A DNA stretch of 64,000 bases, from assembly GCA_041741535.1 (NCBI GenBank), contig JBGSJV010000027.1:12837-76836 (forward strand), written 5' to 3'. The notes under the pieces are model-generated. The model did no database searches. It was given only the letters and a program-made list of their open reading frames with translations, and was not told where the DNA came from. Source of the DNA: Pirellulaceae bacterium (GTDB taxonomy: Bacteria > Planctomycetota > Planctomycetia > Pirellulales > Pirellulaceae). Shown one piece after another: positions 22,021-34,783 of this stretch (its first letter is position 1; every line of letters begins with the position of its first letter). A program made the translations under genes and the position numbers.

Positions 22021-23448
22021 ATGGATATTCTCCGTTTTGGGATGGGTCGACTTGGCCCGACAGCACTTTCGCATTGTCTTCTCTTATTCTTCGCCTGTGT
22101 CCTCGATGACCGTGTCCTCGATGACAGTGTCCTCGACGGCAGTGTCGCTTTGGCTCAGGAATCGCCGCAGACGTATCGAAGATTCGAGGTCTTGGATCAA
22201 GGTGATCGCGTGGCTTCCCTGAAGGTCACGGCCGAAGCGGTCGTCCCCCGTTGGGCTCAAGAGGTATCACAAGCGAAATACTCGTGGTCGACCGAGGTCA
22301 ACGCCACGCCGCGTTTTGAGTTACCTTTGGTCTTTGTCCTTCCGCCGGTCGAGCCGGATCAACCATTTGGAAATCACAACCATCAACCGTCACTTGCATG
22401 GTTGGACAATGGAGACTTGATCGCCATTTGGTATTCGACCAGTTCCGAATCAGGCACCGAACTCACGGTTCTGGCTTCCCGTTTGCGAGCGAATGCAGAT
22501 CAATGGGATCCCTCGAGTGAATTCTTTAAGGCCGAGCAGCGCAACATGCATGGGTCGGCGATCTTCCACGATGGTGCCGGCACCTTGTTTCACATCAACG
22601 GAATGGGGCCGTTGGGCGGTCGAGGCTGGGCGAAATTGGCGTTGTTACAACGAACCAGTCGTGACCATGGGGTCACGTGGAGCTCACCCCAAGCCATCGG
22701 TCCCGAGTACACGACGCGGCACCAGGTCATATCGGGAACGTTGCGAACTTCCGCCGGATATTTGATCCAATGTTGTGACGCGGACCCCGGACCAAACGGT
22801 GGCACGGCGATCCATGTGAGTCATGACGACGGCAAGACTTGGTCGGATGCGGGACGCGGAACCAAACCCGAATTTGTGAGCGGAGGCAACGGACTCGGCA
22901 CTGTGGCCGGCATTCACGCGTCGGTGGTCGAATTGGCCAATGGCAATCTCTTGGCATTGGGCCGAGGGGATTCGATCGACGGCCACATGCCGCAAAGTAT
23001 TTCACGCGACACGGGGAAGACGTGGGAATATAGCCCCAGTCCCTTTCCGCCGATTGGTGGTGGGCAACGCTTGATTTTGCGACGGCTAAACGAAGGCCCC
23101 TTATTGCTGGTTTCGTTCACGTCTGGCAATCGCACCGAGCCGGAAGCAAATCCGCAGTCATTTATTGACCAACTAGGCCAAACTTTCGCGGGAAATGGCA
23201 TGTATGCGGCGGTGTCGTTTGACGAAGGAGCCACTTGGCCGCTGCGCAAACTACTGACACCTGGATCCGGAAACTGGGATGGTGGTGCCCATACAAAAGA
23301 ATTCACTGCTTCGCCAACTCGCGCTGAACATGCGGGTTATTTGGCTTCCACGCAAACGCCCGACAACACCATTCACGTGATCAGTAGTCGCTTGCACTAC
23401 CAATTCAATCTCGCGTGGTTGGCAGAGGGTTACCACAGCTCGAAGTAA
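22021..23448 (+). CDS. BNR/Asp-box repeat glycoside hydrolase (sialidase-like), secreted
   Basis: Four Asp-boxes (SxDxGxTW): SRDHGVTWS, SHDDGKTWS, SRDTGKTWE, SFDEGATWP. Signal-like N-terminus. Confidence 0.75.
   Translation: MDILRFGMGRLGPTALSHCLLLFFACVLDDRVLDDSVLDGSVALAQESPQTYRRFEVLDQGDRVASLKVTAEAVVPRWAQEVSQAKYSWSTEVNATPRFELPLVFVLPPVEPDQPFGNHNHQPSLAWLDNGDLIAIWYSTSSESGTELTVLASRLRANADQWDPSSEFFKAEQRNMHGSAIFHDGAGTLFHINGMGPLGGRGWAKLALLQRTSRDHGVTWSSPQAIGPEYTTRHQVISGTLRTSAGYLIQCCDADPGPNGGTAIHVSHDDGKTWSDAGRGTKPEFVSGGNGLGTVAGIHASVVELANGNLLALGRGDSIDGHMPQSISRDTGKTWEYSPSPFPPIGGGQRLILRRLNEGPLLLVSFTSGNRTEPEANPQSFIDQLGQTFAGNGMYAAVSFDEGATWPLRKLLTPGSGNWDGGAHTKEFTASPTRAEHAGYLASTQTPDNTIHVISSRLHYQFNLAWLAEGYHSSK
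22097..22148 (+). repeat. 15-bp tandem repeat, about 3.4 copies (gtgtcctcgatgacc / ...aca / gtgtcctcgacggca)
   Basis: Read directly from the sequence. It encodes VLDDR-VLDDS-VLDGS-V just after the signal peptide of the BNR protein. Confidence 0.9.
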
Positions 23449-23586
23449 TTGTCATTTCTGGCCCCAGCCGAGCTCACTTTGGTTGAGCCAAGGATAGGTC
23501 GCGATCACCGGCTGGCCGGTCCCGAGCCGTTGTCGGTCATGTTATGGGCGTGCGAACTGCGGACGTCTGGCGAACAGATTCCGACA

Positions 23587-23862
23587 ATGGACGAGGGGGA
23601 ACCACCCCAGGTTGTTGAGAGCGTTGGCGGCGACAATCCTTCGTCGGATGTAGAAGCAAGTTATCTCTGCGATGCGTGTGGCGAAGAGATCATCATTCCG
23701 TTGGATTTGACGGCAGGATCGTATCAGACGTATGTGGAGGACTGCCCCGTCTGCTGCCGCGCCAACGTCATCAAAGTCCAACTAGACCCCAACGGCACCC
23801 TCCAAGCCTGGGCAGAACCAGAACGGGACCACGGTAGTTTGCGACGTTTTTGCTTGCAATAA
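23587..23862 (+). CDS. CPXCG-motif cysteine-rich protein
   Basis: YLCDACGEEIIIPLDLTAGSYQTYVEDCPVCCRANVIKV matches the CPXCG-family pattern. The ATG at 23587 is the likely start within the longer track ORF. Confidence 0.7.
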   Translation: MDEGEPPQVVESVGGDNPSSDVEASYLCDACGEEIIIPLDLTAGSYQTYVEDCPVCCRANVIKVQLDPNGTLQAWAEPERDHGSLRRFCLQ

Positions 23863-23936
23863 TGAAAAATCGCGGAAATCTGTTAAAATGAGTACAATCA
23901 GGCCGAAAAGCGAGATCATTTGACGAGCGATTTCAT

Positions 23937-23965
23937 TTGACAAGAAAGACAATAGATCATATGAT
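23937..23965 (+). promoter_or_regulatory. Sigma70-like promoter TTGACA-17 nt-TATGAT for the 24001-26754 operon
   Basis: TTGACA at 23937-23942 and TATGAT at 23960-23965, about 35 nt upstream of ATG 24001. A direct repeat tcatttgac x2 lies just upstream. Confidence 0.55.
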
Positions 23966-23970
23966 CTATT
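23951..23970. promoter_or_regulatory. Perfect 20-bp palindrome aatagatcatatgatctatt (candidate operator)
   Basis: The sequence is exactly self-complementary when read directly. It overlaps the predicted -10 box. Confidence 0.6.
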
Positions 23971-24000
23971 CATGCTATACCATTTCGTGAGAGCAGGCAG

Positions 24001-24375
24001 ATGGGAGATGAACTTGAGGAAATACGCCACCAACTGGTGGTTCTTTGCCAGCGCAAGGGGGCGCGCAAAAGCGAGTGGTCGATCAATTGCCCGACGGAAT
24101 GGCAACCCACCACAGTTATCGAGCCGCAAACTGGCTTGCCGTTTACCGACGCGGGTGCTTGGGAATTTGTCGCTGAGAAGCTTAGAGACGGCTTGGAGCT
24201 AGAGACGGTTCAACTTGAAAGGCCGCCAGGTTCGATTGGCTATGTCTTGAAGATCCCGCTTGGCGACAGGAAGTTGTACGTGAAGTTACAGCTAGGGGCC
24301 GGAAAGGTCGTGGGCCGCAGTTTTCATTACAGCACAGAAACGAACCGCCCGTCTAAGGAGATTAAGAATGAATGA
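24001..24375 (+). CDS. Small protein, possible MqsR-like (RelE-fold) toxin
   Basis: 124 aa. The stop overlaps the start of the downstream MqsA-like gene by 8 nt. The C-terminal LYVKLQLGAGKVVGRSFH resembles MqsR VYLKITVIHDVLIVSFKEK (recalled). The gene order matches mqsR-mqsA. Confidence 0.4.
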   Translation: MGDELEEIRHQLVVLCQRKGARKSEWSINCPTEWQPTTVIEPQTGLPFTDAGAWEFVAEKLRDGLELETVQLERPPGSIGYVLKIPLGDRKLYVKLQLGAGKVVGRSFHYSTETNRPSKEIKNE

Positions 24376-24940
24376 TTCCAGCGAGATAATATTCCCAGCA
24401 ATCGATTGTCCTTCATGCAGTTCAGGGAATGTTCGGTCACGCTTTGTCGACACGTCGTTTCCATATGGGCAAGGCGAATCGGCGGTCTTGCTTCCAGTCA
24501 CGCTTCAAGCATTTAGCTGCCTAGACTGTGGGCTCGAGTATGTTGACGATAGCGCCGAGGAATTAAAGCACGACGCGGTTTGTCGGCATATGGGCGTCTT
24601 CACTCCAGCGGAAGTTGAGTCAGTCCGTAACGCCATTGGCATGACTCGGGCGAAGTTCGCAGAGTTAACGAAGATTGGCGAGGCGACTTTAGGACGATGG
24701 GAACGTGGCGCACTGATTCAGAATTCCGCATATGACCAGTTCCTTTACTTGCTTAAATTTTCCGACAATGTAGTTCGTTTACTTAATCGCGAACTGCTAC
24801 AAAAATCTGGGAACCTGCCAACTGGATCAAGCATGGAAGAAGTGCAGTCCAAGTTTAGAGGCTTGGTTAAATCGGAAAGACTGGGCGCTGCGGTAAAAAA
24901 CGCTGCCACTTTTCGTTTGCATGATCCGGAAGCTGCATAG
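24368..24940 (+). CDS. MqsA-family antitoxin-like protein (N-terminal CxxC...CxxC zinc finger + XRE-type HTH)
   Basis: CPSCSSG...CLDCG zinc ribbon followed by an HTH (IGMTRAKFAELTKIGEATLGRWERGALIQNSAYDQFLYLL). This is the same architecture as MqsA/YgiT. Confidence 0.7.
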   Translation: MNDSSEIIFPAIDCPSCSSGNVRSRFVDTSFPYGQGESAVLLPVTLQAFSCLDCGLEYVDDSAEELKHDAVCRHMGVFTPAEVESVRNAIGMTRAKFAELTKIGEATLGRWERGALIQNSAYDQFLYLLKFSDNVVRLLNRELLQKSGNLPTGSSMEEVQSKFRGLVKSERLGAAVKNAATFRLHDPEAA

Positions 24941-24942
24941 CC

Positions 24943-26754
24943 ATGTACATAACAACGTTCTACTCATTCAAGGGCGGCGTCGGCCGGACATTTGCACTTG
25001 TAAATGTCGCAACAGCCCTGGCACGAGCCGGTCGCACGGTATTAATCGTCGACTTTGATCTCGAGGCGCCCGGATTGCAGACCTTTGCGGAGCTCAAGCC
25101 CAAGAAGCCGTCCAAAGGAGTTGTTGAATTTGTGTCCGACTACATAGCAGCCGGTAGCACCGCAGACGTCCGCGATTATGTATACGAAACCAAGGGTGTT
25201 GCGGCTAATGGAGGTAGATTGTGGGTGATGCCCGCTGGAACGGGCGATGGCAACTATCGACGGCAATTGTCCAATATTCACTGGCAAACGCTATATGCCG
25301 AGCAAAACGGGTATTTGATGATGGAAGATCTAAAGGCGCAATGGGAAGACGCCTTTGCACCGGATTACGTTTTCATCGATTCTCGAACTGGGCACACGGA
25401 CGTCGAGGGCATATGTACGAGACAATTACCGGACGCTGTTGTTTTGCTTTTTTTTCCCAACGAGCAAAATCTTGCTGGGCTGGCGGAGGTCGTCGAGGAC
25501 ATTCGGAGTGATCGGTCGCGTACTGACAGGTTGCCGAAGCTACACTTCGTAGTTTCAAACGTCCCCGAACTCGATGATGAAGATGATGTATTAAAAGGAA
25601 GTTTACAACGTTTTCGAAAATCGCTTCGATTTACCTCGCATAATACGATTCGGCATTACCCTAGCCTAGCGTTGGTTGACCAGTGCATTTTCGTGCTTAA
25701 TCGACCAAAGAGTCGATTGACCAAGGAGTATTTGAAACTCAAAGACACCATTATTCTGCACAACATGCGCGACCGCGAGGCAGCCATTGATTACCTACGA
25801 CAAGGAATTCGTCCCTACGGTTTTCGCTTTGAAAGTACGAAGCAAGATCTCGAACGGCGACTAGAAGAAATTCGATCATACCATCCGAACGATGGCGAAA
25901 TACTGTTCTTTATCGCATTGCTTCGCCGATCCGAGGGCAGGACTGACGAGGCCCTCCAATTGTTGGATAAGGCTATTGATAACGGATTTGAGCAAGGGAA
26001 AGTCTTTCTGGAGCGGGCTGCAGGGCGACTCTATACGGGCGATCGGTCTGGCGCGGCGGAAGATGCGCTTCATGCACTTGGGCTATCCAATTTATCTGAC
26101 ACGGAAGTTGCCAAGGCAGCGAGACTACTGGGAATGGCAGAAGAAAATCGCTTGGATGCCGTTTGGGAATGTGCGGCATTGCGAGAAATCCCAGTCGTAC
26201 AACGCGGCCCAATTGTTCAAGCTCTAATGCGGTTTCGAAGAGGACTTCCGTCTGCAATAAAAATTCTTGAATTCGAGATTGACCAGTGTAGTTCGCACAA
26301 AGGAAACGCCAAAAGTCTTTTATCGCTATGCTTGATTGGTGACGGACGTTTCGAGGAGGCATTGCAACACCTCGGTGTCAAACATGAGTGTTTGTCAAAA
26401 TCTAACATTTCCGATCGATTCAATTTCGCCATGAGCACATGGGCAAAGTCAAATGCAAAGCCTGACGAGCTGCTAAATGAGCTTGGCAAATACTTCGAGC
26501 GAGGTAGCGAAGATGTTCCGGGTGATGCAAATTACCCGCAATGTTGTGCCTTAGTATTTGCTGCGATAGGCAATCGCGACGAGGCAATCAAGCACGCACT
26601 GGAAGCGAAAAGGCGAATCGAGAAATCTGGGGAGATGGCGTTTAGTTGCTGGCGGTATTTAAACGCTCTCCCAAAAGACTTCTCGGAAGACTGCGATGCC
26701 ATCATAGAGTTTGCGAAGTCTGGGAATCCGATGCCCAAGTTTATTGCGAACTAA
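24943..26754 (+). CDS. KGGVGR-motif ParA/MinD-like ATPase fused to a C-terminal TPR-like repeat domain
   Basis: Deviant Walker A FYSFKGGVGRTF, then VLIVDFDLEAPGL, YVFIDSRTGHTD. The C-terminal ~320 aa are helical repeats. The ATG lies 2 nt after the upstream stop. Confidence 0.8.
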   Translation: MYITTFYSFKGGVGRTFALVNVATALARAGRTVLIVDFDLEAPGLQTFAELKPKKPSKGVVEFVSDYIAAGSTADVRDYVYETKGVAANGGRLWVMPAGTGDGNYRRQLSNIHWQTLYAEQNGYLMMEDLKAQWEDAFAPDYVFIDSRTGHTDVEGICTRQLPDAVVLLFFPNEQNLAGLAEVVEDIRSDRSRTDRLPKLHFVVSNVPELDDEDDVLKGSLQRFRKSLRFTSHNTIRHYPSLALVDQCIFVLNRPKSRLTKEYLKLKDTIILHNMRDREAAIDYLRQGIRPYGFRFESTKQDLERRLEEIRSYHPNDGEILFFIALLRRSEGRTDEALQLLDKAIDNGFEQGKVFLERAAGRLYTGDRSGAAEDALHALGLSNLSDTEVAKAARLLGMAEENRLDAVWECAALREIPVVQRGPIVQALMRFRRGLPSAIKILEFEIDQCSSHKGNAKSLLSLCLIGDGRFEEALQHLGVKHECLSKSNISDRFNFAMSTWAKSNAKPDELLNELGKYFERGSEDVPGDANYPQCCALVFAAIGNRDEAIKHALEAKRRIEKSGEMAFSCWRYLNALPKDFSEDCDAIIEFAKSGNPMPKFIAN

Positions 26755-27171
26755 ATAGAAATTCCCTCAGACGTTCGGTCGGTTGCTTGCTTTAAATTGA
26801 ACTGAAGATCTACACCAACGCCAGCCCCATCTGCGAAAAACTCGGGCCAAACAGTGACAGATACGTATATGGCTCACCCGCCCACGACTGAAGTTTCGGC
26901 GCAGAGAGATTCGCGACAGCGTCGGTCATTCGGCGACAGACGGGCAATTAGAAATGGCCACGGATGAAGCGAAAAAACAGTTCAATGACTTCGGTACCAG
27001 AAGCTTGTCGCAACGAACCAAACCAACTAGAATCCTTCACGTTGGACTCTCCAACTGCACGAACCGTTGCGTCCACAGTACTCGAAACCTCCGACCGTGC
27101 GACAATCGCACGACAGGAGTCCACTCTTTAAGATTTAACACTTTTTGGGACGCTTCCACCAAGAATCGACT

Positions 27172-28308
27172 TTAATTAGAAGCGAGTCCGAGATCGCCAT
27201 CGCCATATATCAGGACAAGACGTTTTCCACGACTCTTTGACATCCGCATGGCCTCGTTCGCATGTATCGTCAGCTCTTCAAAGTTGTTGGCTTGAGAGGG
27301 ATAACTTGCAATGCCACCGCTTATCGTGATTCTACGCATTCCGTTTTCGGTCGTAAAACCCTGTTCGGCGACGTTCTTCGCGAGGCGGTCTAAAAGGAGC
27401 TTCGCCTCTGAACCCTCCGTATTCTTGAATACCATCAGAAACTCATCGCCGCTACGATGGTATACCACGGCGCGATGTTCTAGTTCCGATACAAGCGTAT
27501 CAGCAAGTTGGCGAATTACATTGTCAGTTGCATCATGACCAATCTCGGTATTCAATGCCTTTAGATCGTCCATGTCAATGAAAGCCACAGAGAGCGGTTG
27601 CCGTGGGTTCTCTAAGTATTGAAGCGAGTCCCGCTCAAACTGGGTTAGGTCAGGAAGACCAGTCAGCTGATTTCTGCTTACGGGCTCGGAGTCAGACTCC
27701 ATGAGCTCAATTGCGATTCGCTTGTCCAATTCATGAATAATCTGACTGTGCAACTGCCACACTGCGGAATGGTGCGAGTAACTAGACTCCTCGGAATGAA
27801 ATTGAGCAAAGAGGGATCGCGTTGAAGTCGCCGCCTCACGCAACCCAGCGGAGGTCAAATTGAGCAAGATAGCTTTCAGTGTGTCTTGGGGTAGGTTATT
27901 TGGTTCGGTCATAAGGGACCAAACGGAAATCAACCGACCGGCTTCGTACAACACTGTACCCACGCCTTCGAGCGATGCTTCAGCGAATTCGGCCACCGCC
28001 GTTGTGACTTCGGCCGCTTCAGCCATGGTCTCTTCGAACAGTTGTTCCACTTGTTGCTGGGATTTAACCACGCCCATGCGAATACTGACAACAGCGAAGT
28101 TAATCTTTTCCAGCTTTTCAACCAAACTGGCGGCCGTACGCGCGGGCATCAACCGTTTGGCGGCCGCCTTCACCGGGTAGACAGCTCTTCCCATATCCGT
28201 GTACGGACTTGATTGCCCAAATGGACCCAATAAAGCCTCTATCGTCGGCCGTATCTGATGCGTGTAGAACCCGAGATTGAACGCAGCTCTATGTCGATGC
28301 GCATCCAC
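27172..28308 (-). CDS. GGDEF-family nucleotide cyclase (SGDEF variant) with an uncharacterised ~200-aa helical N-terminal domain
   Basis: QLTGLPDLTQF, FIDMDDLKALNTEIGHDATD, YHRSGDEFLMVF, ITISGGIAS, ANEAMRMSKSRGK. No RxxD I-site upstream of SGDEF. GTG start with GGAGGAG 5 nt upstream. Confidence 0.8.
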   Translation of the reverse strand: MDAHRHRAAFNLGFYTHQIRPTIEALLGPFGQSSPYTDMGRAVYPVKAAAKRLMPARTAASLVEKLEKINFAVVSIRMGVVKSQQQVEQLFEETMAEAAEVTTAVAEFAEASLEGVGTVLYEAGRLISVWSLMTEPNNLPQDTLKAILLNLTSAGLREAATSTRSLFAQFHSEESSYSHHSAVWQLHSQIIHELDKRIAIELMESDSEPVSRNQLTGLPDLTQFERDSLQYLENPRQPLSVAFIDMDDLKALNTEIGHDATDNVIRQLADTLVSELEHRAVVYHRSGDEFLMVFKNTEGSEAKLLLDRLAKNVAEQGFTTENGMRRITISGGIASYPSQANNFEELTIHANEAMRMSKSRGKRLVLIYGDGDLGLASN

Positions 28309-29046
28309 TTTTTACTCCTCCAAACTCTCACCGCGTGAGGGTAACGCCCATTAGACTCTAACTGTCCCATAAACAAACAGTATATAAGCGCCGGAAGCGT
28401 CCCCAAAATTTTAAAAGCATAAAAAATGGTCTCCCTCCGTGCGATAATCGCACGGTCGGAAGTATCAGGTTTTTTGACAACGGTTGACGCCGTTGAGGAG
28501 ACCACCGCGAAAGATCTTAGCTTGTTTGGTTCTTTGGGGCAAGCTTCGGGTAATGAATCCGTTGAAATGTTTCTCATATTGATAAGCAACTATATCCGTT
28601 CGCTCATCTGCTACTACCTTCGGAAGTTACGGAGTCGCGACGAATTGTCGAAGTACGTGGAAATGTTTTGGCCTCAACGGTACTTCTGGTCGGAGCTTGC
28701 AGGTCGACCTTTTCCGATTCGGTGCTGGCGGTATATGTGGCAAGTGCCTGTGCGTTGGCGGTGCTACTGGTACGGAGCTGACAATTACGAAAGGCGACAA
28801 ATAGAACCGTACAAAGAGCCTGAAGAGCCACGAGAAAAAGATAACACCGAATAAACTACGCTTTTGCACTTGTTCTTTGGATCCGTCCCCCATTAATGGA
28901 CGCAGGCTTGGTTTCTGGGTATCATCTGCGTTGGTAAGCATTGGTCTATTGCCACAGTTATATGGCACTGTGGTGGGACGAGCAGGGATTTTGTACTTTC
29001 AGAATAGCTTTACAGGGCCGACGTAAGTCGATACGGAAATCAGGGA

Positions 29047-31617
29047 ATGGCACAGGAACTTCTGGGCAAGCACGCCGCGTCTGCCGCTTCAACCAGCAAA
29101 CGAGCCGATCGGCTGACGCTGCCTCGGCTGGAACGCAAACTGTTCGAGGCCTGCGATATTCTCCGCGGCAATATGGATGCCTCGGAGTACAAAGAGTTTA
29201 TCTTCGGCATGTTGTTCCTCAAGCGACTGAGCGATCAATTCACGGCCGATCGCGAAAAACTGATTGCCGAATACCATAGCAAAGGACTCAAGCAAGCTCT
29301 GATCGAGAAGCAACTCGACAATCCCGACAAGTACGACTTCTTCGTACCGCTCCAAGCCCGCTGGAGTGCCCAGGACGAAAAGGGCCGCAACATCGGGATC
29401 GCCCACCTCAAAACGGCCGTTGGCTCCGGACTCAACAAGGCCCTGGCGGCGATCGAAGATGCCAATCCCAACACGCTGCAAGACGTGCTCAAAGGGATCA
29501 ACTTCAATCGCAAGGTCGGCCAGCGGTCGATGGACGATGATACCTTGGTGGCATTCATCCAGCACTTCAACGACATCTCCCTCTCCAACGACGACTTCGA
29601 GTTCCCCGATCTGCTAGGGGCGGCCTACGAATACCTGATCAAGTACTTCGCCGACAGTGCCGGAAAAAAAGGGGGCGAGTTTTACACTCCGGCCGAAGTG
29701 GTCCGGATGATGGTCCAGTTGATCGGGCCCAAAGAAGGCATGAGCATCTACGACCCGTGTGCCGGTTCGGCGGGGATGCTGATTCAGGCCAAGCAGTTCG
29801 TCCAAGAAACGGGCGGTGATTCTCGCAATCTGGAACTCGCGGGGCAAGAACTCAACGGCGGCACGTGGGCGATCTGCAAGATGAACCTGCTGCTGCACGG
29901 CGTTCGCAGTGCCGATGTTCGCCAAGGTTGCACACTGAAAGAACCCCAGCACTTGGACAAAAACGGCGAAATCCGCCGCTTCGACCGGGTGATCGCCAAT
30001 CCGCCCGTCTCGCAGAACTACGTTCGCAGCGGGATGCAGTTCGCCGAACGCTTCCACACCTTCATGCCCGAGAGCGGCAAGAAGGCTGACCTGATGTTCG
30101 TGCAGCACATGGTCGCCTCGCTCAAGAGCGATGGACGCATGGCCGTGGTCATGCCGCACGGCGTCCTGTTCCGTGGTGGCGAAGAAAAGGCTTGCCGTCA
30201 GAAGTTCATCAAGGACGGCAATCTGGAAGCGGTCATCGGCTTGCCTGCCGGCCTGTTCTACGGCACGGGCATTCCGGCCTGCGTGCTGGTTATCAACAAG
30301 AACGAATCGGCCAAGCGCAAGAGCGTGTTGTTCATCAACGCCGACCGGGAATACAAGGAAGGCAAGAACCAGAATTCGCTGCGGCCCGAAGACATCGAGA
30401 AGATCACCCACGTCTATCAAAAACGGCTCAGCGTGCCGAAATACTCCCGTGAAGTTCCGGTCGAGGAACTGGAGCGGGAGGAATTCAATCTCAACATCCG
30501 CCGCTACGTCGATAACAGCCCGCCCCCGGAACCACACGATGTTCGGGCACATCTGCACGGCGGCATTCCGGTCAGCGAAATCACCCTGCTGACTTCCTAC
30601 TTCGACAACTACGCCGGACTGCGGTTGCTGTTGTTCAAAGATCGGGACGCCAAATACAGCGACTTCGCAACTGGCGTCGGCTCGAAGGAGAACATCAAAA
30701 CGCGAGTCGAATCGGCACCAGGCCTTCAAGCCAAACATGCTGAGTTCCATAAGTCGCTCGATGCGTGGTGGACCGGCAATGTCAAACGCCTCGAAAAACT
30801 CCCCGAGACACAAAACGTCTTTGAGTTTCGTCGGCAGTGCATCGATGGGTTGTCGAAGGCATTGGTGCCGCACAACCTGCTCGATGTGTATCAGGCTCGT
30901 GGTGCCGTGGCTGCTTACATCAAGTCGCTGGATAGCGATCTCAAGTCGATAGCGGCCAGTGGTTGGGGGCCGGAACTGATCCCCGACGACGAAATCCTCC
31001 AGTCCCAATTCCCCGAAGTGCTGGAGCAGATCGAGCAAGAGACGGCTCGCATCGCCGAACTCGAAGGGTTGTTTGCCGCCGTCAGTGGTGGCGACGAAGA
31101 AGAGGGCGAAGTCGAGGTCGATGCCGAGAACGGCGTGCTGCCCAAGTCGTTGGTCAAATCGCTCAAGGAAGAAAAGAAGAACCTGGGGGGCGAAATCAAA
31201 GAGGCCAAGAAGCGGGCCAAGAACGAAGGGCGAAGTGGCGTACCTGCCGAAGTTGTTGGCTGGGAGAAACGGATCGAAGAAATCGACGCTCAACTCGCCC
31301 GGCATGTGGCCTTGGATGACGAACTCAAGACGATCAAGACCCACATTCGGGAAGTGGAGAAGCAGAGGGACACCCTTATCGCCTCTGCCCGTGCCAAGAT
31401 CACCGAGACCGAGGCGAAGAAGCTGATCCTGGCCCGGTTCAAGCGGCTATTGACCGAGCAATTCGACGGCTACCTGCGACAGTACCAGCGAGCGTTCATT
31501 ACCGCCGTCGAGAACCTGTGGTCCAAGTACGCCGTGACCACGAAACAGATTCTCGCCGAGCGGGATCGGGAAGCGGCCCAACTCAACGCATTTTTTAAGG
31601 AGTTGGGGTATGAGTGA
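29047..31617 (+). CDS. hsdM: Type I restriction-modification methyltransferase subunit M with a ~330-aa C-terminal coiled-coil extension
   Basis: The N-terminus [36 protein letters not shown] is typical of HsdM. AdoMet motif [12 protein letters not shown]; catalytic VIANPPV. The C-terminal part is charged and coiled-coil-like. Confidence 0.9.
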
Positions 31618-32986
31618 AGTTCTCACCGGTGCGTCAAATCGCTTTCCGGCTGACTGGAGTACCTTTTCTGTCGGTGAAGCTTTCGAGATGCAATTGGGCA
31701 AGATGTTGAGCAAAGCGTTCAAGATTGGAAAAACGCCGAAGCCGTATCTCGCAAACAAGAATGTCCAATGGGACCGAGTTGACCTCAGCAGTTTGGAGAC
31801 AATGGACTTCACTGAAGCTGAGCGAGAAAAGTTCTCATTGTTGCCGGGTGATCTTCTTGTCTGTGAAGGTGGCGAGATTGGTCGCACTGCGATGTGGCAC
31901 GGCGAAATGACGAATTGCTACTTCCAAAAGGCGATACATCGGCTTCGACCACGAACCAACGACGTACTACCCGAGTACATGCTTCGCTACATGCGATTGG
32001 CAGCTACGAACGGGTGGCTCGTCGATTTTATGTCGCAGTCGAGCATTGCTCATCTCACCCGTGAACAATTTGCACGAGTTCCAATCGGTATCCCCCGGCC
32101 ACCCCAGCAACGCAAGATCGCTCGGATTCTGACGACGGTAGACAACCTGATCGAGAAGACCGAGGCCCTGATTGCCAAGTATCAGGCGATCAAGCAGGGG
32201 ATGATGCACGACCTGTTCACACGTGGCGTGGACGAACACGGCCACCTGCGGCCCCCATACGAAGAAGCCCCCGAACTTTACAAACAGTCCGAGTTGGGTT
32301 GGATTCCGAAGGAGTGGGAGGTTTGTCGTGTCGATGAAGTCGGTTCGGTTAAGCTCGGTCGGCAGAGATCACCAAAACACCAGTCGGGAAGGTTCACCAC
32401 ACCTTACCTCCGAGTCGCCAACGTATTTGATGGGTTCATTGACTACTCCGACGTGCTTGAAATGGACTTCACGCCAAGGGAAAAGGAAACCTATTCGTTA
32501 CTGCCCGGCGACATTCTTCTGAATGAAGGACAAAGCCTGGAACTCGTGGGGCGATCCGCTATCTACGAAGGCGAACCGCATCGCTTTTGTTTTCAGAACA
32601 CGTTGATCCGGTTTCGTCCGTACACACCGCATGACGTCCGTTTCTGCCGTGGTATTTTCAAATACTACATCGACATCGGCCGATTCATGACAATCGCACG
32701 CCAAACGACCTCAGTTGCTCATCTTGGTGCAGATCGGCTGGCAAAACTGGCCTTCCCTTGTCCACATTCTGATGAACAGCATCGGATAGCCAACGCTCTA
32801 CTCCAACACGAGAAGCGATGCGACCTTGATCAAGCTTACATGAACAATCTGTTGCAAACAAAAACCGGCCTCATGCAGGACCTGCTTACCGGCAAGGTCC
32901 GGGTGAAGGTGGACGAAGAGGAGGATGACGGTAAAGCGGCGGATGCGAAAGGACAGATTGAAGATGTCTCAACAAAGGTTAGTTAG
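31610..32986 (+). CDS. hsdS: Type I R-M specificity subunit S (two target-recognition domains)
   Basis: The start overlaps the hsdM stop (ATGAGTGA). Two TRD halves are each followed by a conserved helix ([37 protein letters not shown]; ...[17 protein letters not shown]). Confidence 0.9.
32861..32930 (+). repeat. hsdS 3' conserved segment, copy 1 of a ~70-bp direct repeat (copy 2 at 33835-33904)
   Basis: Hand alignment gives 60/70 identical nucleotides. Both copies encode [18 protein letters not shown]. Confidence 0.8.
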
Positions 32987-33104
32987 TGAGTGCTGCCGCA
33001 CGAGCGCACACTGTGTGCTTTGCCGCTGGTTTTTCTGTGGCTGCGAAGAGTTCGGCTGGAGGCACCACTTGCGTGGTGCTAAGTACAGCCCGTTTCTGTA
33101 TTTA

Positions 33105-33788
33105 ATGAGTTGCCTGTTTTGGGTTCTTCGCCGCCTCTCGTTGGTGGAATATCTCAAACCCTGCCTACGGCAGTGGATTTGGCATTCGAAACAAACACCC
33201 GCCACCTTCACCGACCTCTACATTTTCGCTTGGTTCGCTGTGGCGATTTCGGCTGCATGGTGGCACAACGAGCCTCCGAACTGGCTCTACACGGCTTGGG
33301 CGTTGTTTATGGTAGTGCAAATCGTGCAAACGACCTTTTACCACAACCTATGGCGAAAAGTGATCGGAAAGAATCGCTTGGTTTACAGCCACGGACGGAA
33401 CCTGCTCATTGGACTCCTGAACTATTTTGAAATCACTTGGCTCTTTGGCGTGCTTTACTGGTGGAATCGTCATGCCGGTTTCGACAGTTGCCTTAAAAGC
33501 GTATGGCAGGCGATTTACTTTTCATTCGTCACTGGTGCCACAATCGGTTACGGAGATATCACGCCTTCGAAGAGTGATCTCGGTTTCGTTCATGCATTGG
33601 TGGTGGTTCAATCGCTTGTTTCAATCACTATGCTAACGATTATAATCGGCCATGCGATCGGAGCCTTAGGGAGCCTCGATGACACGACTTCGGCGAAAGA
33701 GAAGCGACGACAAAAGGAACAAGAGCAGGATGAATTCGCGAAAGCGATCGCCGATAAGATTCGTCCGGGAGATCATCCAGATGTCTGA
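33105..33788 (+). CDS. Potassium-channel-like membrane protein (Ion_trans_2 type pore)
   Basis: Selectivity-filter signature FVTGATIGYGDITP, flanked by pore and inner helices, with additional TM helices upstream. The start is uncertain (ATG 33105, ATG 32964 or the track start at 32925, which overlaps hsdS). Confidence 0.7.
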   Translation: MSCLFWVLRRLSLVEYLKPCLRQWIWHSKQTPATFTDLYIFAWFAVAISAAWWHNEPPNWLYTAWALFMVVQIVQTTFYHNLWRKVIGKNRLVYSHGRNLLIGLLNYFEITWLFGVLYWWNRHAGFDSCLKSVWQAIYFSFVTGATIGYGDITPSKSDLGFVHALVVVQSLVSITMLTIIIGHAIGALGSLDDTTSAKEKRRQKEQEQDEFAKAIADKIRPGDHPDV

Positions 33789-33918
33789 ATACTCCTTGCT
33801 TAATAAGCCGTTTCACACTATTTGTGCCAAGGACAAAACCGGCCTCATGCAAGACCTTCTCACCGGCAAGGTGCGTGTGAAGACGGACGAAGACGAGGAG
33901 GTCGCCGCCCATGCCTAA
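33781..33918 (+). pseudogene. 45-codon chimeric relic: hsdR-like 5' end (MSEYSLLNKPF) joined to an hsdS 3' end ([27 protein letters not shown])
   Basis: The first 11 codons resemble the intact hsdR start VSEYSFVEKPF at 36650. The last ~28 codons duplicate the hsdS C-terminus. Its stop overlaps ATG 33911 of the next gene, as a genuine hsdS stop would. Confidence 0.6.
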
Positions 33919-34783
33919 ACTCCAGCAACGTCCCTTCTCGATCACGATCTTCGTGCCGGATGGCGATCCCGACAGCCTGCGATTGGTGGAGAAGTCCAAC
34001 TGGACAGGCATCGGTGTCGTCTTCAATCGCACGAACTACAAACAGGTCGTGATCCAAGAGGAGTTCAACAAGACCGGCGTCTACGTGCTGGTCGGTTCGT
34101 CCGAAGGGAGTGGCCTGCCGACGATCTACATCGGCGAAGGTGATCCGGTCAAAGATCGATTGAACCAGCATTACAGCAAGAAGGATTTCTGGGATTGGGC
34201 CGTGTTCTTCGTGACGAAGGACAACAGCCTGAACAAGGCTCACGTCCAGCATCTTGAAGCTCGTTTGCTGGAACTGGCCCACGCCGCCAAGCAATGCAAG
34301 TTGGATAATACGCAGAAACCTCTGGCACCGACGCTCTCCAAGTCGCAAACCGCCGACGTGGAGAGTTTCCTGCTCGACGTGCTGAGCATCTTCCCGCTCT
34401 TGGGCTTGAGCGTCTTCGAAAAAACGGAGACATCGGCCCGACAAAGTGAAATGCTGTTTATCAACGCGAAGGGAATCAAGGCAACCGGTTACGAAGACCC
34501 CAAAGGATTCGTCGTCCTCAAGGGCTCGCAGGCCGTAAAAGAGGAGACCAATACCATTCCAACCTACGTAACGACCTTGCGTAAAGACTTGATCGGACAA
34601 GGGGTCCTGGTTGACGACGGATCGGTATGGAAGTTTATGCAGGATCAAGTGTTTACGTCTCCATCAAGTGCGGCGGCAGTCGTTCAAGGGCGATCATCCA
34701 ATGGACGAGATGACTGGAAGAACAAGGATGGAAAAACACTGAAGCAGATACAGGAATCCACCGCAATGGAGGTCAAAGAATGA
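33911..34783 (+). CDS. GIY-YIG nuclease family protein with C-terminal DUF4357-like domain
   Basis: GVYVLVG...TIYIGEGDPVKDRLNQH...HLEARLLELA (GIY-YIG). C-terminal FVVLKGSQA...FTSPSSAAAVVQGRSSNGRDDWK (DUF4357 pattern). Confidence 0.8.
   Translation: MPKLQQRPFSITIFVPDGDPDSLRLVEKSNWTGIGVVFNRTNYKQVVIQEEFNKTGVYVLVGSSEGSGLPTIYIGEGDPVKDRLNQHYSKKDFWDWAVFFVTKDNSLNKAHVQHLEARLLELAHAAKQCKLDNTQKPLAPTLSKSQTADVESFLLDVLSIFPLLGLSVFEKTETSARQSEMLFINAKGIKATGYEDPKGFVVLKGSQAVKEETNTIPTYVTTLRKDLIGQGVLVDDGSVWKFMQDQVFTSPSSAAAVVQGRSSNGRDDWKNKDGKTLKQIQESTAMEVKE

What the first reader, a model, noticed from the sequence alone, without database searches (positions are those of the whole stretch)
24001..26754. Translationally coupled operon: MqsR-like, MqsA-like Zn-finger/HTH, and KGGVGR ParA-like ATPase with TPR domain
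Seen in sequence:
- Three ORFs are tightly packed. Genes 1 and 2 overlap by 8 nt, and genes 2 and 3 are separated by 2 nt. They follow a single promoter/operator.
- Gene 2 has the MqsA architecture (CxxC...CxxC ribbon + XRE HTH).
- Gene 1 is small and sits upstream as mqsR does, with a C-terminus reminiscent of MqsR. This similarity is weak and rests on a recalled sequence.
- Gene 3 is a 603-aa SIMIBI ATPase with the deviant Walker A KGGVGR and DFDLEAPG, fused to ~320 aa of TPR-like repeats. This domain logic resembles NTPase + repeat-sensor proteins of conflict systems.

Inference: the operon is a tripartite toxin-antitoxin or defence module in which the ATPase-TPR protein senses or regulates. 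I am not aware of a described MqsRA + KGGVGR-TPR system.
Basis: partly seen in the sequence, partly recalled or inferred. Interest (0 to 1): 0.7.

Follow-up and report, generated by a model that had tools for sequence, protein, structure and literature searches.

The report
Conserved three-gene toxin-antitoxin-like ATPase module
Three tightly packed genes (an unknown small protein, an MqsA-type repressor/antitoxin and an unusual MinD/ParA-type ATPase with a helical-repeat tail) form a self-contained operon that recurs unchanged in bacteria of more than ten phyla. It looks like an undescribed three-part toxin-antitoxin or defence module, but the small protein cannot be shown to be MqsR.

Summary
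There are three co-directional ORFs: g1 24001-24375, g2 24368-24940 and g3 24943-26754. They overlap by 8 nt and are separated by 2 nt, and they lie behind one sigma-70-like promoter.

- **Operator:** the promoter's -10 lies inside a perfect 20-bp palindrome.
- **g2:** it is a genuine MqsA-family protein with a zinc ribbon and an XRE HTH. It also has a roughly 50-aa C-terminal tail that E. coli MqsA lacks.
- **g3:** it has a MinD/ParA fold with an invariant KGGVGR P-loop, in which Arg replaces the catalytic Lys. A TPR-like solenoid follows.
- **g1:** it is a new family. It has no HMM, profile-profile or fold match to MqsR/RelE or to anything else. Only a 12-column resemblance in the C-terminal hairpin was found.

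The three genes are a unit. Of 80 loci found through g3, from more than ten phyla, all 80 carry g2 and 75 carry g1 in the same order. The other five carry a different small gene in the first slot. No fourth gene is conserved. The operator core ATCATATGAT lies upstream of g1 in 66 of 69 loci.

The best reading is an autoregulated three-component toxin-antitoxin-like module, analogous to toxin-antitoxin-chaperone (TAC) systems. In this reading the ATPase-TPR protein acts on the antitoxin's conserved tail. Toxicity, the protein contacts and any defence role are inferred, not shown. I found no description of this triad in the literature I could search.

The parts
23937..23965 (+). Predicted sigma-70-type promoter: -35 TTGACA (23937-23942), 17-nt spacer, -10 TATGAT (23960-23965).
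   Evidence: 11 of 12 consensus matches, the best site in 23400-27400. Sequence read.
23951..23970 (.). Operator: perfect 20-bp palindrome AATAGATCAT|ATGATCTATT. Its core ATCATATGAT (23956-23965) overlaps the -10.
   Evidence: inverted repeat I3, 100% complementary; the core (<=1 mismatch) lies within 160 nt upstream of g1 in 66 of 69 homologous loci (40 exact), against 10 matches in 770 kb elsewhere in the same loci. It is the only exact copy in the 64-kb window.
23909..23942 (+). Two 17-nt direct repeats, AGCGAGATCATTTGACG and AGCGATTTCATTTGACA. They contain degenerate operator-like half-sites and may form a second, weaker operator about 43 nt upstream of the main one.
   Evidence: families D1 and D2. 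In many homologous loci a second ATCATATGAT-like site lies about 41-42 or about 52 nt upstream of the first.
24001..24375 (+). g1: 124-aa protein of a previously unannotated family (slot 1, the putative toxin or effector). Predicted fold: two helices followed by a 4-stranded beta-meander. Invariant residues include K95 and G105-R-S-F-H-Y110 in the C-terminal hairpin.
   Evidence: 502 clusters at 50% identity. No family, PDB or fold match.
24368..24940 (+). g2: 190-aa MqsA-family zinc-ribbon + XRE-HTH protein (putative repressor/antitoxin). Ribbon cysteines C14, C17, C51, C54 lie at 24407-24529. The HTH (residues about 78-140) lies at 24599-24787.
   Evidence: TIGR03830, 60.0 bits against cut-off 61.8. 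(PF15731, 28.3 against 30). (family profile matches solved E. coli MqsA 3gn5 over residues 3-131, E 1.9e-5). (invariant cysteines).
24788..24937 (+). C-terminal extension of g2 (residues about 141-190). A variable linker is followed by a conserved terminal motif F163-R-x-L ... R..Q..F182-x-L184-R. E. coli MqsA (131 aa) has no such extension. It is the putative docking element for g3.
   Evidence: F163, F182 and L184 conserved in >=90% of 61 sequences. The motif is retained even in the divergent 'type C' loci.
24943..25812 (+). g3 N-terminal domain (residues 1-about 290): MinD/ParA-fold SIMIBI NTPase with the variant P-loop K10-G-G-V-G-R15-T16 (24970-24990), switch I D37-F-D39 and Walker B D146.
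   Evidence: NF047398, 177 bits, cut-off 90. (K10, G11-G14, R15, D37, D39, D146 invariant in 66 sequences). (Foldseek: MinD 1hyq TM 0.77, Soj 8jmj 0.74, ParA 3ea0 0.76). (g3 6-40 aligns with E. coli MinD 3q9l 7-41, so R15 takes the place of MinD K16).
25840..26754 (+). g3 C-terminal domain (residues about 300-603): TPR-like alpha-solenoid with family-specific conserved motifs (FNYAMAEW about 493-500, ANYxQC 529-534, FSCWRY 567-572, D583).
   Evidence: conserved columns. (TPR profile hits 303-475, including the chaperedoxin/YbbN TPR domain 313-473). (all-helical, pLDDT >90, one small beta-hairpin at 566-575). (consensus TPR superhelix 8chy).

Best explanation
This is an autoregulated, self-contained three-component toxin-antitoxin-like (conflict) module.

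**Proposed mechanism**
1. g2 is an MqsA-family protein. As a dimer it binds the palindromic operator ATCATATGAT, which overlaps the -10, and represses the operon.
2. The zinc-ribbon N-domain of g2 binds and neutralises g1. g1 is a small protein of a new fold family. Its invariant basic and aromatic residues (Y93, K95, Q97, R106, H109, Y110) lie on the C-terminal beta-hairpin and are predicted to form the active or binding surface of the effector, most likely one that targets RNA or translation.
3. g3 is the third component. Its MinD/ParA-type domain retains the signature lysine needed for an ATP-sandwich dimer but has Arg in place of the P-loop lysine, so it is probably a nucleotide-dependent dimerisation switch with slow or no hydrolysis.
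4. The TPR-like domain of g3 docks on the conserved aromatic C-terminal tail of g2. Through this contact g3 controls whether the antitoxin is available, stable or DNA-bound.
5. This parallels SecB-type chaperones, which control antitoxins through a C-terminal ChAD tail in TAC systems such as MqsRAC and HigBAC.
6. A stress signal, ATP depletion or a phage product that perturbs g3 would then free g1.

**Shown by computation:** the gene arrangement, family and fold assignments of g2 and g3, conservation of the triad, conservation of the operator, and the exchangeability of slot 1.

**Inferred:** repression by g2, toxicity of g1, the g1-g2 and g2-tail-g3 contacts, the direction of control by g3, and any trigger.
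For: **The triad is a unit**
- Of 80 g3-anchored loci from at least ten phyla, 80 have g2 directly upstream and 75 have g1 upstream of g2, all on the same strand.
- All six g1-anchored contexts show the triad.
- No other flanking gene family occurs in more than 6 of 83 loci.
- The pairwise-identity matrices of the three proteins correlate, rho 0.75-0.80.

**g2 is MqsA-family**
- Searches support the assignment. NCBI's pipeline names its plasmid homologues 'type II TA system antitoxin MqsA family protein'.

**Autoregulation**
- The palindrome covers the -10 in the window.
- The core is present in 66 of 69 loci against a background of about 0.002 per 170 nt.
- In 'type C' loci the HTH of g2 is divergent and the operator palindrome changes with it.

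**Modular, effector-like slot 1**
- Five planctomycete loci keep g2 and g3 but carry a distant g1 relative (type B) or an unrelated small protein (type C). The N-domain of g2 diverges in step, while its tail motif is retained.
- The toxin-first order and the translational coupling resemble mqsRA and higBA (established knowledge).

**Tail and third gene**
- g2 has a roughly 50-aa extension with nearly invariant F163, F182 and L184.
- TAC antitoxins, including a Vibrio MqsA (ChAD residues 136-176), depend on the third gene through such a tail (PMC5105189).
- MqsRAC defends against phage T2 (PMC9519451).
- The HigC chaperone recognises aromatic patterns in ChAD and in a phage protein (bioRxiv 10.1101/2024.02.24.581848).

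**g3 as a switch**
- It has a MinD/ParA fold, and the nucleotide-site residues are invariant with R15 replacing Lys.
- KGGVGR domains occur in other conflict-type genes: a TIR fusion next to a patatin-like protein and the untested PADLOC candidate PDC-M28.

**Signs of horizontal acquisition**
- GC content drops to 0.50 at 24-28 kb, against 0.53-0.55 around it.
- Flanks differ between genomes.
- IS-disrupted, decayed copies exist (L008 and L054).
Against: - g1 shows no detectable relationship to any toxin family or fold. Calling it a toxin rests only on position and analogy.
- One locus (L085) has an intact g1 next to frameshifted g2 and g3. If that is real rather than long-read sequencing error, g1 would not be lethal on its own.
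- Immediate neighbours in 58 other loci (L001-L062) are mainly metabolic or housekeeping genes with no enrichment of defence families.
- The module is absent from 50,697 phage records and is full-length in only 5 of 72,556 plasmids.
- None of the three proteins hits a validated defence or TA-toxin model in PADLOC.
- The C-terminal domain of g3 is fairly conserved (motifs invariant across phyla), unlike typical fast-evolving phage sensors.
- No protein-protein contact was tested, because no multimer prediction was available.
- An Arg-for-Lys P-loop could mean the ATPase is inactive and purely structural.
Confidence: 0.5

Rival explanations
1. The triad is a non-toxic regulatory switch. It is a transcription-factor module in which g2 is a repressor, and its DNA binding is tuned by a small co-regulator (g1) and a nucleotide-dependent MinD/ParA-type partner (g3). 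A precedent is the MinD-type ATPase FleN, which modulates FleQ. The module would couple expression of itself, and possibly of distant targets, to cellular nucleotide status without killing or arresting the cell.
For: - g1 has no toxin signature.
- The operator is strongly conserved.
- FleN-type antiactivators are among the sequence relatives of the g3 P-loop region.
- Neighbours are mostly housekeeping genes.
- L085 has an intact g1 beside broken g2 and g3.
Against: - Only one exact operator exists in the 64-kb window, so no regulon is visible.
- There is no conserved neighbouring target gene.
- The patchy distribution across phyla, the variable insertion sites and the IS-decayed copies fit a selfish or accessory module better than a core regulator.
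- Slot 1 is swapped for unrelated small proteins while g2 and g3 persist, which is typical of effector exchange.
Confidence: 0.2
2. g3 is the effector and g1 an adaptor or sensor. In this reading the MinD/ParA-like ATPase is the growth-arresting component once activated, for example by coating the nucleoid or disturbing division-site placement. g2 represses or sequesters it, and g1 modulates that complex.
For: - Kaur et al. (eLife 2020, PMC7159879) list predicted-inactive MinD/ParA-like domains among effector domains of conflict systems.
- g3 is the constant, most conserved component (N-domain mean pairwise identity 0.61).
- Slot 1 is replaceable.
Against: - The order 'small gene, then MqsA-type gene' and the zinc-ribbon N-domain of g2 match toxin-antitoxin pairing with the upstream gene.
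- A 600-aa protein with a peptide-binding-type TPR domain looks more like a regulator or sensor than a toxin.
- In other KGGVGR proteins the enzymatic effector is a separate fused domain such as TIR. This suggests the ATPase is the regulatory part.
Confidence: 0.12
3. The triad is a partition or stability cassette. g3 would act as a ParA-type motor, g2 as its centromere-binding adaptor on the ATCATATGAT repeats, and g1 as an accessory factor. Together they would stabilise a mobile element.
For: - ParA/MinD fold.
- Repeated operator sites are often spaced about 41-52 nt apart.
- The module occurs on a 23-kb Massilia plasmid next to the replication initiator gene.
- Small ParA partners with Arg-rich tails are known (established knowledge).
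Against: - Nearly all copies are chromosomal, between housekeeping genes, with no conserved mobile-element genes.
- Full-length copies occur in only 5 of 72,556 plasmids.
- The P-loop lysine needed for ParA ATPase cycling is replaced by Arg.
- There are only one or two binding sites rather than a centromere array.
- A TPR domain is not a feature of partition ATPases.
Confidence: 0.05
4. The arrangement is an ordinary MqsR/MqsA pair that merely happens to sit next to an unrelated ParA-like gene.
For: g2 is MqsA-family. A short C-terminal resemblance of g1 to MqsR exists.
Against: - g3 accompanies g2 in 80 of 80 loci across phyla with gaps of 0-15 nt.
- g1 fails every MqsR test.
- g2 carries a conserved tail that canonical MqsA lacks.
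Confidence: 0.02

Closest known systems
MqsR/MqsA type II toxin-antitoxin system (E. coli ygiU-ygiT; structures 3HI2, 3GN5, 3O9X)
   Same: - A small gene lies upstream of, and is translationally coupled to, a zinc-ribbon + XRE-HTH protein.
- The g2 family profile aligns with solved MqsA over its whole length.
- There is a palindromic operator in the module's own promoter.
- A C-terminal hairpin pattern Y-x-K ... S-F-(K/H) is shared by eye between MqsR and g1.
   Different: - g1 is not detectably homologous to MqsR by HMM, hhalign or Foldseek.
- The operator sequence is ATCATATGAT, not the ACCT-N-AGGT type known for E. coli MqsA (own knowledge).
- g2 has an extra conserved roughly 50-aa tail.
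- An obligatory third gene is present.
Toxin-antitoxin-chaperone (TAC) systems: MqsRAC, HigBAC, CmdTAC (PMC5105189, PMC9519451, bioRxiv 10.1101/2024.02.24.581848)
   Same: - Three genes lie in the order toxin, antitoxin, third factor.
- The antitoxin, which can be MqsA-family, carries a C-terminal extension beyond the core fold that ties it to the third protein.
- Aromatic residues are key in that extension. F163 and F182 are nearly invariant here.
   Different: - The third protein here is a 600-aa KGGVGR MinD/ParA-type NTPase with a TPR-like domain, not a SecB-like chaperone. No SecB family hit was found.
- The tail motif is conserved across phyla, whereas ChAD sequences are reported to be dissimilar between systems.
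- The function of the third protein here is untested.
KGGVGR-motif variant AAA ATPase domain proteins (NCBIfam NF047398), including PADLOC candidate PDC-M28B and TIR fusions
   Same: - The g3 N-domain is a member (177 bits, cut-off 90).
- It matches PDC-M28B at 7e-36 over the ATPase domain.
- Other members sit in conflict-type contexts.
   Different: - PDC-M28 is a different cassette (179 aa + 438 aa + 491 aa). Its partners are unrelated to g1 and g2, with no hits, and its ATPase has an N-terminal extension and no TPR domain.
- PDC-M28 is itself an untested candidate.
MinD/ParA/Soj/FleN SIMIBI ATPases
   Same: - Fold match (TM 0.74-0.77).
- The signature lysine, DxD switch I and Walker B aspartate are conserved.
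- There is precedent for this class regulating DNA-binding proteins, such as FleN-FleQ and ParA autorepression (own knowledge).
   Different: - The P-loop Lys is replaced by an invariant Arg.
- There is no membrane-targeting helix, ParB or MinE partner.
- A roughly 300-aa TPR-like domain is fused.
- Sequence similarity to canonical members is limited to the first 40-60 residues.

Membership tests
MqsR toxin family (Pfam PF15723) - for g1 | Match to the family HMM | tested here: not met
   No Pfam or NCBIfam hit for g1 at E<=1. None of the 37 family members hits PF15723 or any toxin family at E<=1.
MqsR toxin family (Pfam PF15723) - for g1 | Profile-profile homology to an MqsR alignment | tested here: not met
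   hhalign of A1 against A3 (26 MqsR sequences seeded with the verified 3HI2_B sequence): probability 0.5%, E 0.12, 12 columns aligned.
MqsR toxin family (Pfam PF15723) - for g1 | RelE/MqsR-type fold | tested here: not met
   The AF2 model has pLDDT 87.6. Foldseek against PDB found no hit at E<=0.001; the best hits are de novo NTF2-like designs with TM about 0.35, and no RelE/MqsR/YoeB structure is in the top 50. BFVD also gave nothing. The topology (helices followed by a 4-strand meander) is not incompatible with such a fold, but no match was detected.
MqsR toxin family (Pfam PF15723) - for g1 | Catalytic residues equivalent to MqsR K56, Q68, Y81, K96 (own knowledge of the literature) | tested here: inconclusive
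   By eye, g1 Y93-x-K95 ... S107-F108-H109 parallels MqsR Y81-x-K83 ... S94-F95-K96, and these positions are invariant or >=90% conserved in both alignments. The alignment is not statistically supported.
MqsR toxin family (Pfam PF15723) - for g1 | Encoded directly upstream of, and coupled to, an MqsA-family gene | tested here: met
   8-nt overlap in the window. The same order is seen in 75 of 80 loci.
MqsR toxin family (Pfam PF15723) - for g1 | Toxicity / ribosome-independent mRNA cleavage | not testable with these tools
   Requires expression and RNA-cleavage assays.
MqsA antitoxin family (TIGR03830 / PF15731) - for g2 | Score above the curated HMM cut-off | tested here: inconclusive
   TIGR03830 scores 60.0 bits against 61.8. 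PF15731 scores 28.3 against 30. Both are full-length matches just under threshold. PGAP names plasmid homologues MqsA-family.
MqsA antitoxin family (TIGR03830 / PF15731) - for g2 | N-terminal CxxC...CxxC zinc ribbon followed by an XRE-type HTH | tested here: met
   C14, C17, C51 and C54 are invariant in 61 sequences. HTH_3 and HTH_31 hits cover residues 85-138. The family profile aligns with solved MqsA 3gn5 residues 3-131 at E 1.9e-5.
MqsA antitoxin family (TIGR03830 / PF15731) - for g2 | Palindromic operator in its own promoter (autoregulation) | tested here: met
   There is a perfect palindrome over the -10, and its core is conserved in 66 of 69 loci. Binding itself was not tested.
MqsA antitoxin family (TIGR03830 / PF15731) - for g2 | Binds and neutralises the upstream toxin | not testable with these tools
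   Only indirect evidence is available: g2 divergence tracks the identity of the slot-1 protein.
KGGVGR-motif variant AAA ATPase (NCBIfam NF047398) - for g3 | HMM above cut-off and the KGGVGR motif | tested here: met
   177.3 bits against cut-off 90 over residues 2-187. K10-G-G-V-G-R15 is invariant in 66 homologues.
Canonical ParA/MinD partition or positioning ATPases - for g3 | Deviant Walker A KGGxxK[ST] with the P-loop lysine | tested here: not met
   R15 occupies the position of MinD K16 (alignment with 3q9l) and is invariant. The signature K10 is present.
Canonical ParA/MinD partition or positioning ATPases - for g3 | MinD/ParA fold | tested here: met
   Foldseek: 1hyq TM 0.77, 8jmj 0.74, 3ea0 0.76, 6riq 0.75.
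Canonical ParA/MinD partition or positioning ATPases - for g3 | Cognate ParB/MinE-type partner and centromere or membrane-targeting element | tested here: not met
   No ParB or MinE gene is conserved nearby. The C-terminus is a TPR-like domain, not an amphipathic helix. Only one or two operator sites are present.
Toxin-antitoxin-chaperone (TAC) systems | Third gene encodes a SecB-like chaperone | tested here: not met
   g3 has no SecB family hit; its hits are to MinD/ParA and TPR families.
Toxin-antitoxin-chaperone (TAC) systems | Antitoxin carries a C-terminal extension beyond the antitoxin core, with gene order T-A-third gene | tested here: met
   g2 residues about 141-190 lie beyond the MqsA core and end in a conserved terminal motif. 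The order is conserved.
PADLOC candidate PDC-M28 | All three cassette proteins (A, B, C) present | tested here: not met
   Only the ATPase domain of g3 matches PDC-M28B, and g1 and g2 match no PDC-M28 model. An example cassette has different partner proteins.
STAND NTPase + TPR sensor proteins (e.g. Avs/AVAST-like) | STAND-class (NACHT/NB-ARC) NTPase domain | tested here: not met
   The NTPase is SIMIBI-class with a MinD/ParA fold. The TPR-S hit is weak (E 3.8e-4, below cut-off).

The most novel reading that the evidence does not exclude
The triad founds a widespread, undescribed class of three-component toxin-antitoxin or immune modules with three unusual features:
- a toxin of a new fold (the g1 family, with at least two alternative slot-1 effectors);
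- neutralisation by an MqsA-type repressor;
- gating by a naturally Lys-to-Arg 'locked' MinD/ParA-type NTPase, which reads cellular nucleotide status or a phage or stress ligand through its TPR-like domain and holds the antitoxin by its conserved aromatic C-terminal tail.

In effect this would be an ATPase-based, non-chaperone counterpart of TAC systems. More generally, KGGVGR ATPases would be a regulatory NTPase module of bacterial conflict systems.
Probability: 0.35. Interest if true: 0.75.

Novelty: new variant of a known kind. Interest (0 to 1): 0.62.

Why it matters
If the module works as proposed, it would add three things to toxin-antitoxin and phage-defence biology.
- **A new effector family.** g1 forms about 500 clusters at 50% identity, and none is annotated.
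- **A new way to control an antitoxin.** A MinD/ParA-type nucleotide switch with a peptide-binding repeat domain would take the place of a protease or a SecB chaperone.
- **A role for the KGGVGR ATPase domain.** The domain is catalogued but functionally uncharacterised, and it also occurs fused to TIR domains and in an untested defence candidate.

The module is easy to test. It has three short genes and a defined 10-bp operator. It is present in cultivable bacteria such as Paraburkholderia, Pandoraea pneumonica, Colwellia marinimaniae, Pyxidicoccus/Corallococcus and Rhizobium.

A natural Lys-to-Arg substitution in a P-loop, invariant across phyla, is also of interest for how SIMIBI NTPases work.

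Tried and rejected
- **Genome scan with the g1 alignment:** it failed because no stretch was conserved enough. I anchored on g3 instead and checked g1-anchored contexts separately.
- **g1 as MqsR/RelE-like:** tested by Pfam, NCBIfam, PADLOC and PHROG scans, a scan of 37 family members, PDB sequence and profile searches, hhalign against MqsR and Foldseek against PDB and BFVD. All were negative, so the MqsR label was rejected.
- **Alternative slot-1 proteins:** they have no Pfam family either.
- **A conserved fourth gene:** none was found.
- **Defence-island association across genomes:** a first neighbour scan was too large. A reduced set of 116 neighbour proteins showed no defence enrichment.
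- **Membership of PDC-M28:** rejected.
- **Phage origin:** no matches.
- **Plasmid partition role:** judged unlikely.
- **Structured RNA near the operon:** no Rfam match in 23000-29500. The 183-nt inverted-repeat arms do not fold better than shuffles.
- **Literature:** searches for KGGVGR, PDC-M28 and MqsA + ParA/TPR combinations found no description of the triad.
- **Domain-level correlations:** these were meant to pinpoint which part of g2 co-evolves with g1 or g3, but they were uninformative because all were similar.

Full report
**1. What is in the sequence**

The g1/g2 junction reads ATGAATGA, so the two genes overlap by 8 nt. An AAGGAG lies 6 nt before the g2 start. The g2 stop TAG is followed by CC and then the g3 ATG.

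Upstream lies the best sigma-70-like site of the region, TTGACA-17-TATGAT at 23937-23965, matching 11 of 12 consensus positions. Its -10 sits inside a perfect 20-bp palindrome, AATAGATCAT|ATGATCTATT, at 23951-23970. Two 17-nt direct repeats with degenerate half-sites lie just upstream at 23909-23942.

GC content falls to about 0.50 across 24-28 kb, against 0.53-0.55 around it. The closest g3 relative with a source name (81% identity) comes from a Pirellulaceae MAG, so the window is probably planctomycete.

**2. The three proteins**

*g2* is an MqsA-family protein.
- TIGR03830 scores 60.0 bits (cut-off 61.8) over residues 14-135. PF15731 scores 28.3 bits (cut-off 30).
- A profile of 61 family members matches the solved E. 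coli MqsA (3gn5) from residue 3 to 131 at E 1.9e-5. Its HTH is closest to HigA-2.
- The four ribbon cysteines (C14, C17, C51, C54) are invariant.
- Unlike the 131-aa E. coli MqsA, g2 continues for about 50 more residues. A variable linker is followed by a conserved terminal motif, F163-R-x-L ... R..Q..F182-x-L184-R.

*g3* has two domains.
- The N-terminal domain scores 177 bits against NF047398, 'KGGVGR-motif variant AAA ATPase' (cut-off 90).
- The AlphaFold model is confident (pLDDT 89.9).
- Its first approximately 290 residues superpose on MinD, Soj and ParA with TM 0.74-0.77. The remainder is a TPR-like solenoid.
- In 66 homologues K10, G11-G14, R15, D37, D39 and D146 are invariant.
- Alignment with E. 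coli MinD (3q9l, g3 6-40 against MinD 7-41) puts R15 at the position of the P-loop lysine K16. The signature lysine and the switch I aspartates are kept.
- The C-terminal domain is less conserved (mean pairwise identity 0.32 against 0.61 for the N-domain). It nevertheless carries family-specific invariant motifs: FNYAMAEW, ANYxQC and FSCWRY.

*g1* matches nothing.
- No Pfam, NCBIfam, PADLOC or PHROG family matches it. None matches any of the 37 aligned family members, the window protein included.
- There is no PDB sequence hit, alone or as a profile.
- It does have a real family: 51 relatives by word-indexed search and 502 clusters at 50% identity in 1.84 billion representatives. Every one of the 150 listed representatives is under 200 aa, most of them 85-150 aa.
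- The alignment shows an invariant C-terminal G-R-S-F-H-Y plus K95; Y93 and Q97 are nearly invariant.
- The model is confident (pLDDT 87.6): helix 2-17, a long conserved loop, helix 50-62, then four beta-strands.
- Foldseek found no hit at E<=0.001 in PDB or BFVD. The best hits were de novo NTF2-like designs at TM about 0.35, and no RelE/MqsR-type structure appeared in the top 50.
- I verified my recalled MqsR sequence against 3HI2_B, built an MqsR family alignment and ran hhalign. The result was probability 0.5%, E 0.12, with 12 aligned columns (LYVKLQLGAGK against VYLKITVIHDV).
- By eye the C-terminal hairpins share Y-x-K ... S-F-(K/H), which includes positions that are catalytic in MqsR (own knowledge). 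This remains a lead, not a result.

**3. Is it a system?**

Anchoring on g1, all six contexts examined carry g1, an MqsA-like gene and a roughly 610-aa CbiA/ParA gene in that order. They include Corallococcus interemptor and several long MAG contigs. The flanks differ: acetolactate synthase small subunit and leucyl-tRNA synthetase domains in one, release factor and a class II aminoacyl-tRNA synthetase in another.

The 80 best loci come from:
- Planctomycetota
- Acidobacteriota
- Binatia
- Latescibacterota
- Spirochaetia
- Alpha-, Beta- and Gammaproteobacteria
- Myxococcota
- Gemmatimonas
- Bacteroidetes

All but one (L083, cut at the contig end) match essentially the whole query. All 80 have a g2 homologue directly upstream on the same strand, and 75 have a g1 homologue upstream of that.

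No other flanking gene family occurs in more than 6 of 83 loci. The immediate neighbours of 58 loci (L001-L062) are mainly metabolic or housekeeping genes, with no defence enrichment. Pairwise identities of the three proteins across 73 loci correlate at rho 0.75-0.80, so the genes travel together. Full-length copies are rare on plasmids (5 of 72,556 records) and absent from phage records.

**4. The operator**

The core ATCATATGAT, with at most one mismatch, occurs within 160 nt upstream of g1 in 66 of 69 loci. It is exact in 40 of them. It often occurs twice, about 41-42 or about 52 nt apart. Elsewhere in the same loci there are only 10 matches in 770 kb. In the window it is the only exact copy in 64 kb. 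A DNA target conserved across phyla, overlapping the -10, is strong indirect evidence that g2 autoregulates the operon.

**5. The exceptions are informative**

The five loci without g1 are all planctomycete and carry another small ORF in the same slot.
- *Type B* (L059, L079) ends in 'IYIKLKI...VHIMSFH'. It is a distant g1 relative (17 bits against the g1 HMM) and keeps the operator.
- *Type C* (L032, L069, L076) is unrelated by sequence. Its g2 is much more divergent (E 1e-6 to 1e-8, against 1e-21 to 1e-43 in the g1-bearing loci). Its promoter carries a different palindrome of the TTGAC-N5-6-GTCAA type. Even so, an aromatic C-terminal tail motif in g2 and g3 itself are retained.

So the N-domain and HTH of g2 change together with the slot-1 protein and the operator, while the tail stays with g3. 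This suggests that the g2 N-domain contacts slot 1 and the g2 tail contacts g3.

Two loci are decayed by IS insertion. In L008 g1 is truncated and its GRSFHY motif is lost. In L054 an IS lies between g2 and g3. One locus (L085) has an intact g1 beside multiply frameshifted g2 and g3. This may be long-read sequencing error. If it is real, it argues against a lethal g1.

**6. Mechanism**

I commit to a three-component toxin-antitoxin-like module.
- g2 represses the promoter and neutralises g1 through its zinc-ribbon domain, as MqsA does with MqsR.
- g1 is the effector.
- g3 is a nucleotide-dependent dimerisation switch. It keeps the signature lysine, but Arg replaces the P-loop Lys. In ParA/MinD proteins a Lys-to-Arg change typically allows binding but cripples hydrolysis (own knowledge).
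- The TPR-like domain of g3 holds the aromatic C-terminal tail of g2 and so controls the antitoxin.

The closest precedent is the toxin-antitoxin-chaperone class.
- A C-terminal ChAD extension makes the antitoxin dependent on the third gene. This includes a Vibrio MqsA with ChAD at residues 136-176 (PMC5105189).
- MqsRAC protects against phage T2 (PMC9519451).
- The HigC chaperone senses a phage tail protein through the same aromatic pattern it reads in ChAD (bioRxiv 10.1101/2024.02.24.581848).

Here the third protein is not SecB-like, so this is an analogy of logic, not membership. The KGGVGR domain also appears fused to TIR next to a patatin-like protein. It also occurs in PADLOC's untested three-gene candidate PDC-M28, which supports a regulatory role in conflict systems. 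Kaur et al. noted predicted-inactive MinD/ParA-like domains in conflict systems (PMC7159879).

Toxicity, the protein contacts, the sign of g3's effect and any trigger are all inference. I put confidence in this explanation at 0.5.

**7. Rivals**

- A non-toxic regulatory switch (0.2).
- g3 as the effector with g1 as adaptor (0.12).
- A partition or stability cassette (0.05).
- Chance adjacency of an ordinary MqsRA pair and a ParA gene (0.02, contradicted by the conservation data).

**8. Known or new**

Individual pieces are catalogued: the MqsA family, NF047398 and PGAP product names. g1 is unannotated. Searches of the held literature for KGGVGR, PDC-M28 and MqsA + ParA/TPR combinations found no description of the triad. 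Tripartite TA modules built on MqsA-type antitoxins are a known kind, but this one has a new slot-1 family and a new class of third component. I therefore rate it a new variant of a known kind, with interest 0.62.

Noticed in passing
window 26975-27157 and 28393-28572: A pair of roughly 183-nt inverted repeats (73% identity) brackets the GGDEF diguanylate-cyclase gene (27172-28308, minus strand) immediately downstream of g3. Only these two copies occur in the window. There is no Rfam match, and the arms fold no better than shuffled sequence. This could be a cassette boundary, a MITE-like element or a regulatory element.
   Followed up: partly
window 29047-36471: A defence-type cluster lies 2.3 kb downstream of the triad. 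It comprises type I R-M hsdM (29047-31617) and hsdS (31610-32986), an ion-channel-like ORF (32925-33788), a DUF4357/RAMA protein (33911-34783) and a Schlafen AlbA_2 + HATPase_c_4 protein (34780-36471). GC content is again low (0.50) at 34-36 kb. No hsdR was looked for.
   Followed up: partly
window 23449-23862: A 137-aa ORF with a Cys-rich CPXCG domain (PF14255) ends about 140 nt before g1. It is not conserved next to the triad in other genomes.
   Followed up: partly
L032 443-805, L069 4051-4398, L076 1188-1583; L059 279-650, L079 4232-4426: Two alternative small proteins occupy slot 1 in planctomycete versions of the module. Type C ends in 'HYDFRF..IYIETVLD...TVTVVNMH', has no detectable family and has its own TTGAC-N5-6-GTCAA-type operator. 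Type B is a remote g1 relative that keeps S-F-H but not G-R or Y. Their wider distribution was not surveyed.
   Followed up: partly
L089 3989-6193 (Sinorhizobium chiapasense plasmid NZ_CP133151.1): A 734-aa protein has an N-terminal KGGVGR-type ATPase domain fused to a TIR domain (residues 324-445). It sits next to an 874-aa patatin-like protein and another TIR gene, an apparent immune locus that uses the same ATPase module.
   Followed up: partly
L090 2566-5896 (Enterobacter bugandensis plasmid NZ_CP039454.1) and L091 2691-5939 (Pantoea agglomerans plasmid): Other KGGVGR-ATPase cassettes lie beside tyrosine recombinases. One has 179 aa + 438 aa + 491 aa, which fits the PADLOC candidate PDC-M28. 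The other has 150 aa + 928 aa. All partner proteins lack a Pfam family.
   Followed up: partly
L008 3131-4997 and L054 2387-4971: These are decayed copies of the module. In L008 an IS3-like transposase truncates g1, which is then fused in frame to g2 with the GRSFHY motif lost. In L054 an IS lies between g2 and g3, and g1 is frameshifted.
   Followed up: no
L085 4001-6700: g1 is intact, but g2 and g3 are split over several reading frames. This is either long-read assembly error or a natural case of g1 surviving without its partners. The question bears on whether g1 is toxic.
   Followed up: partly
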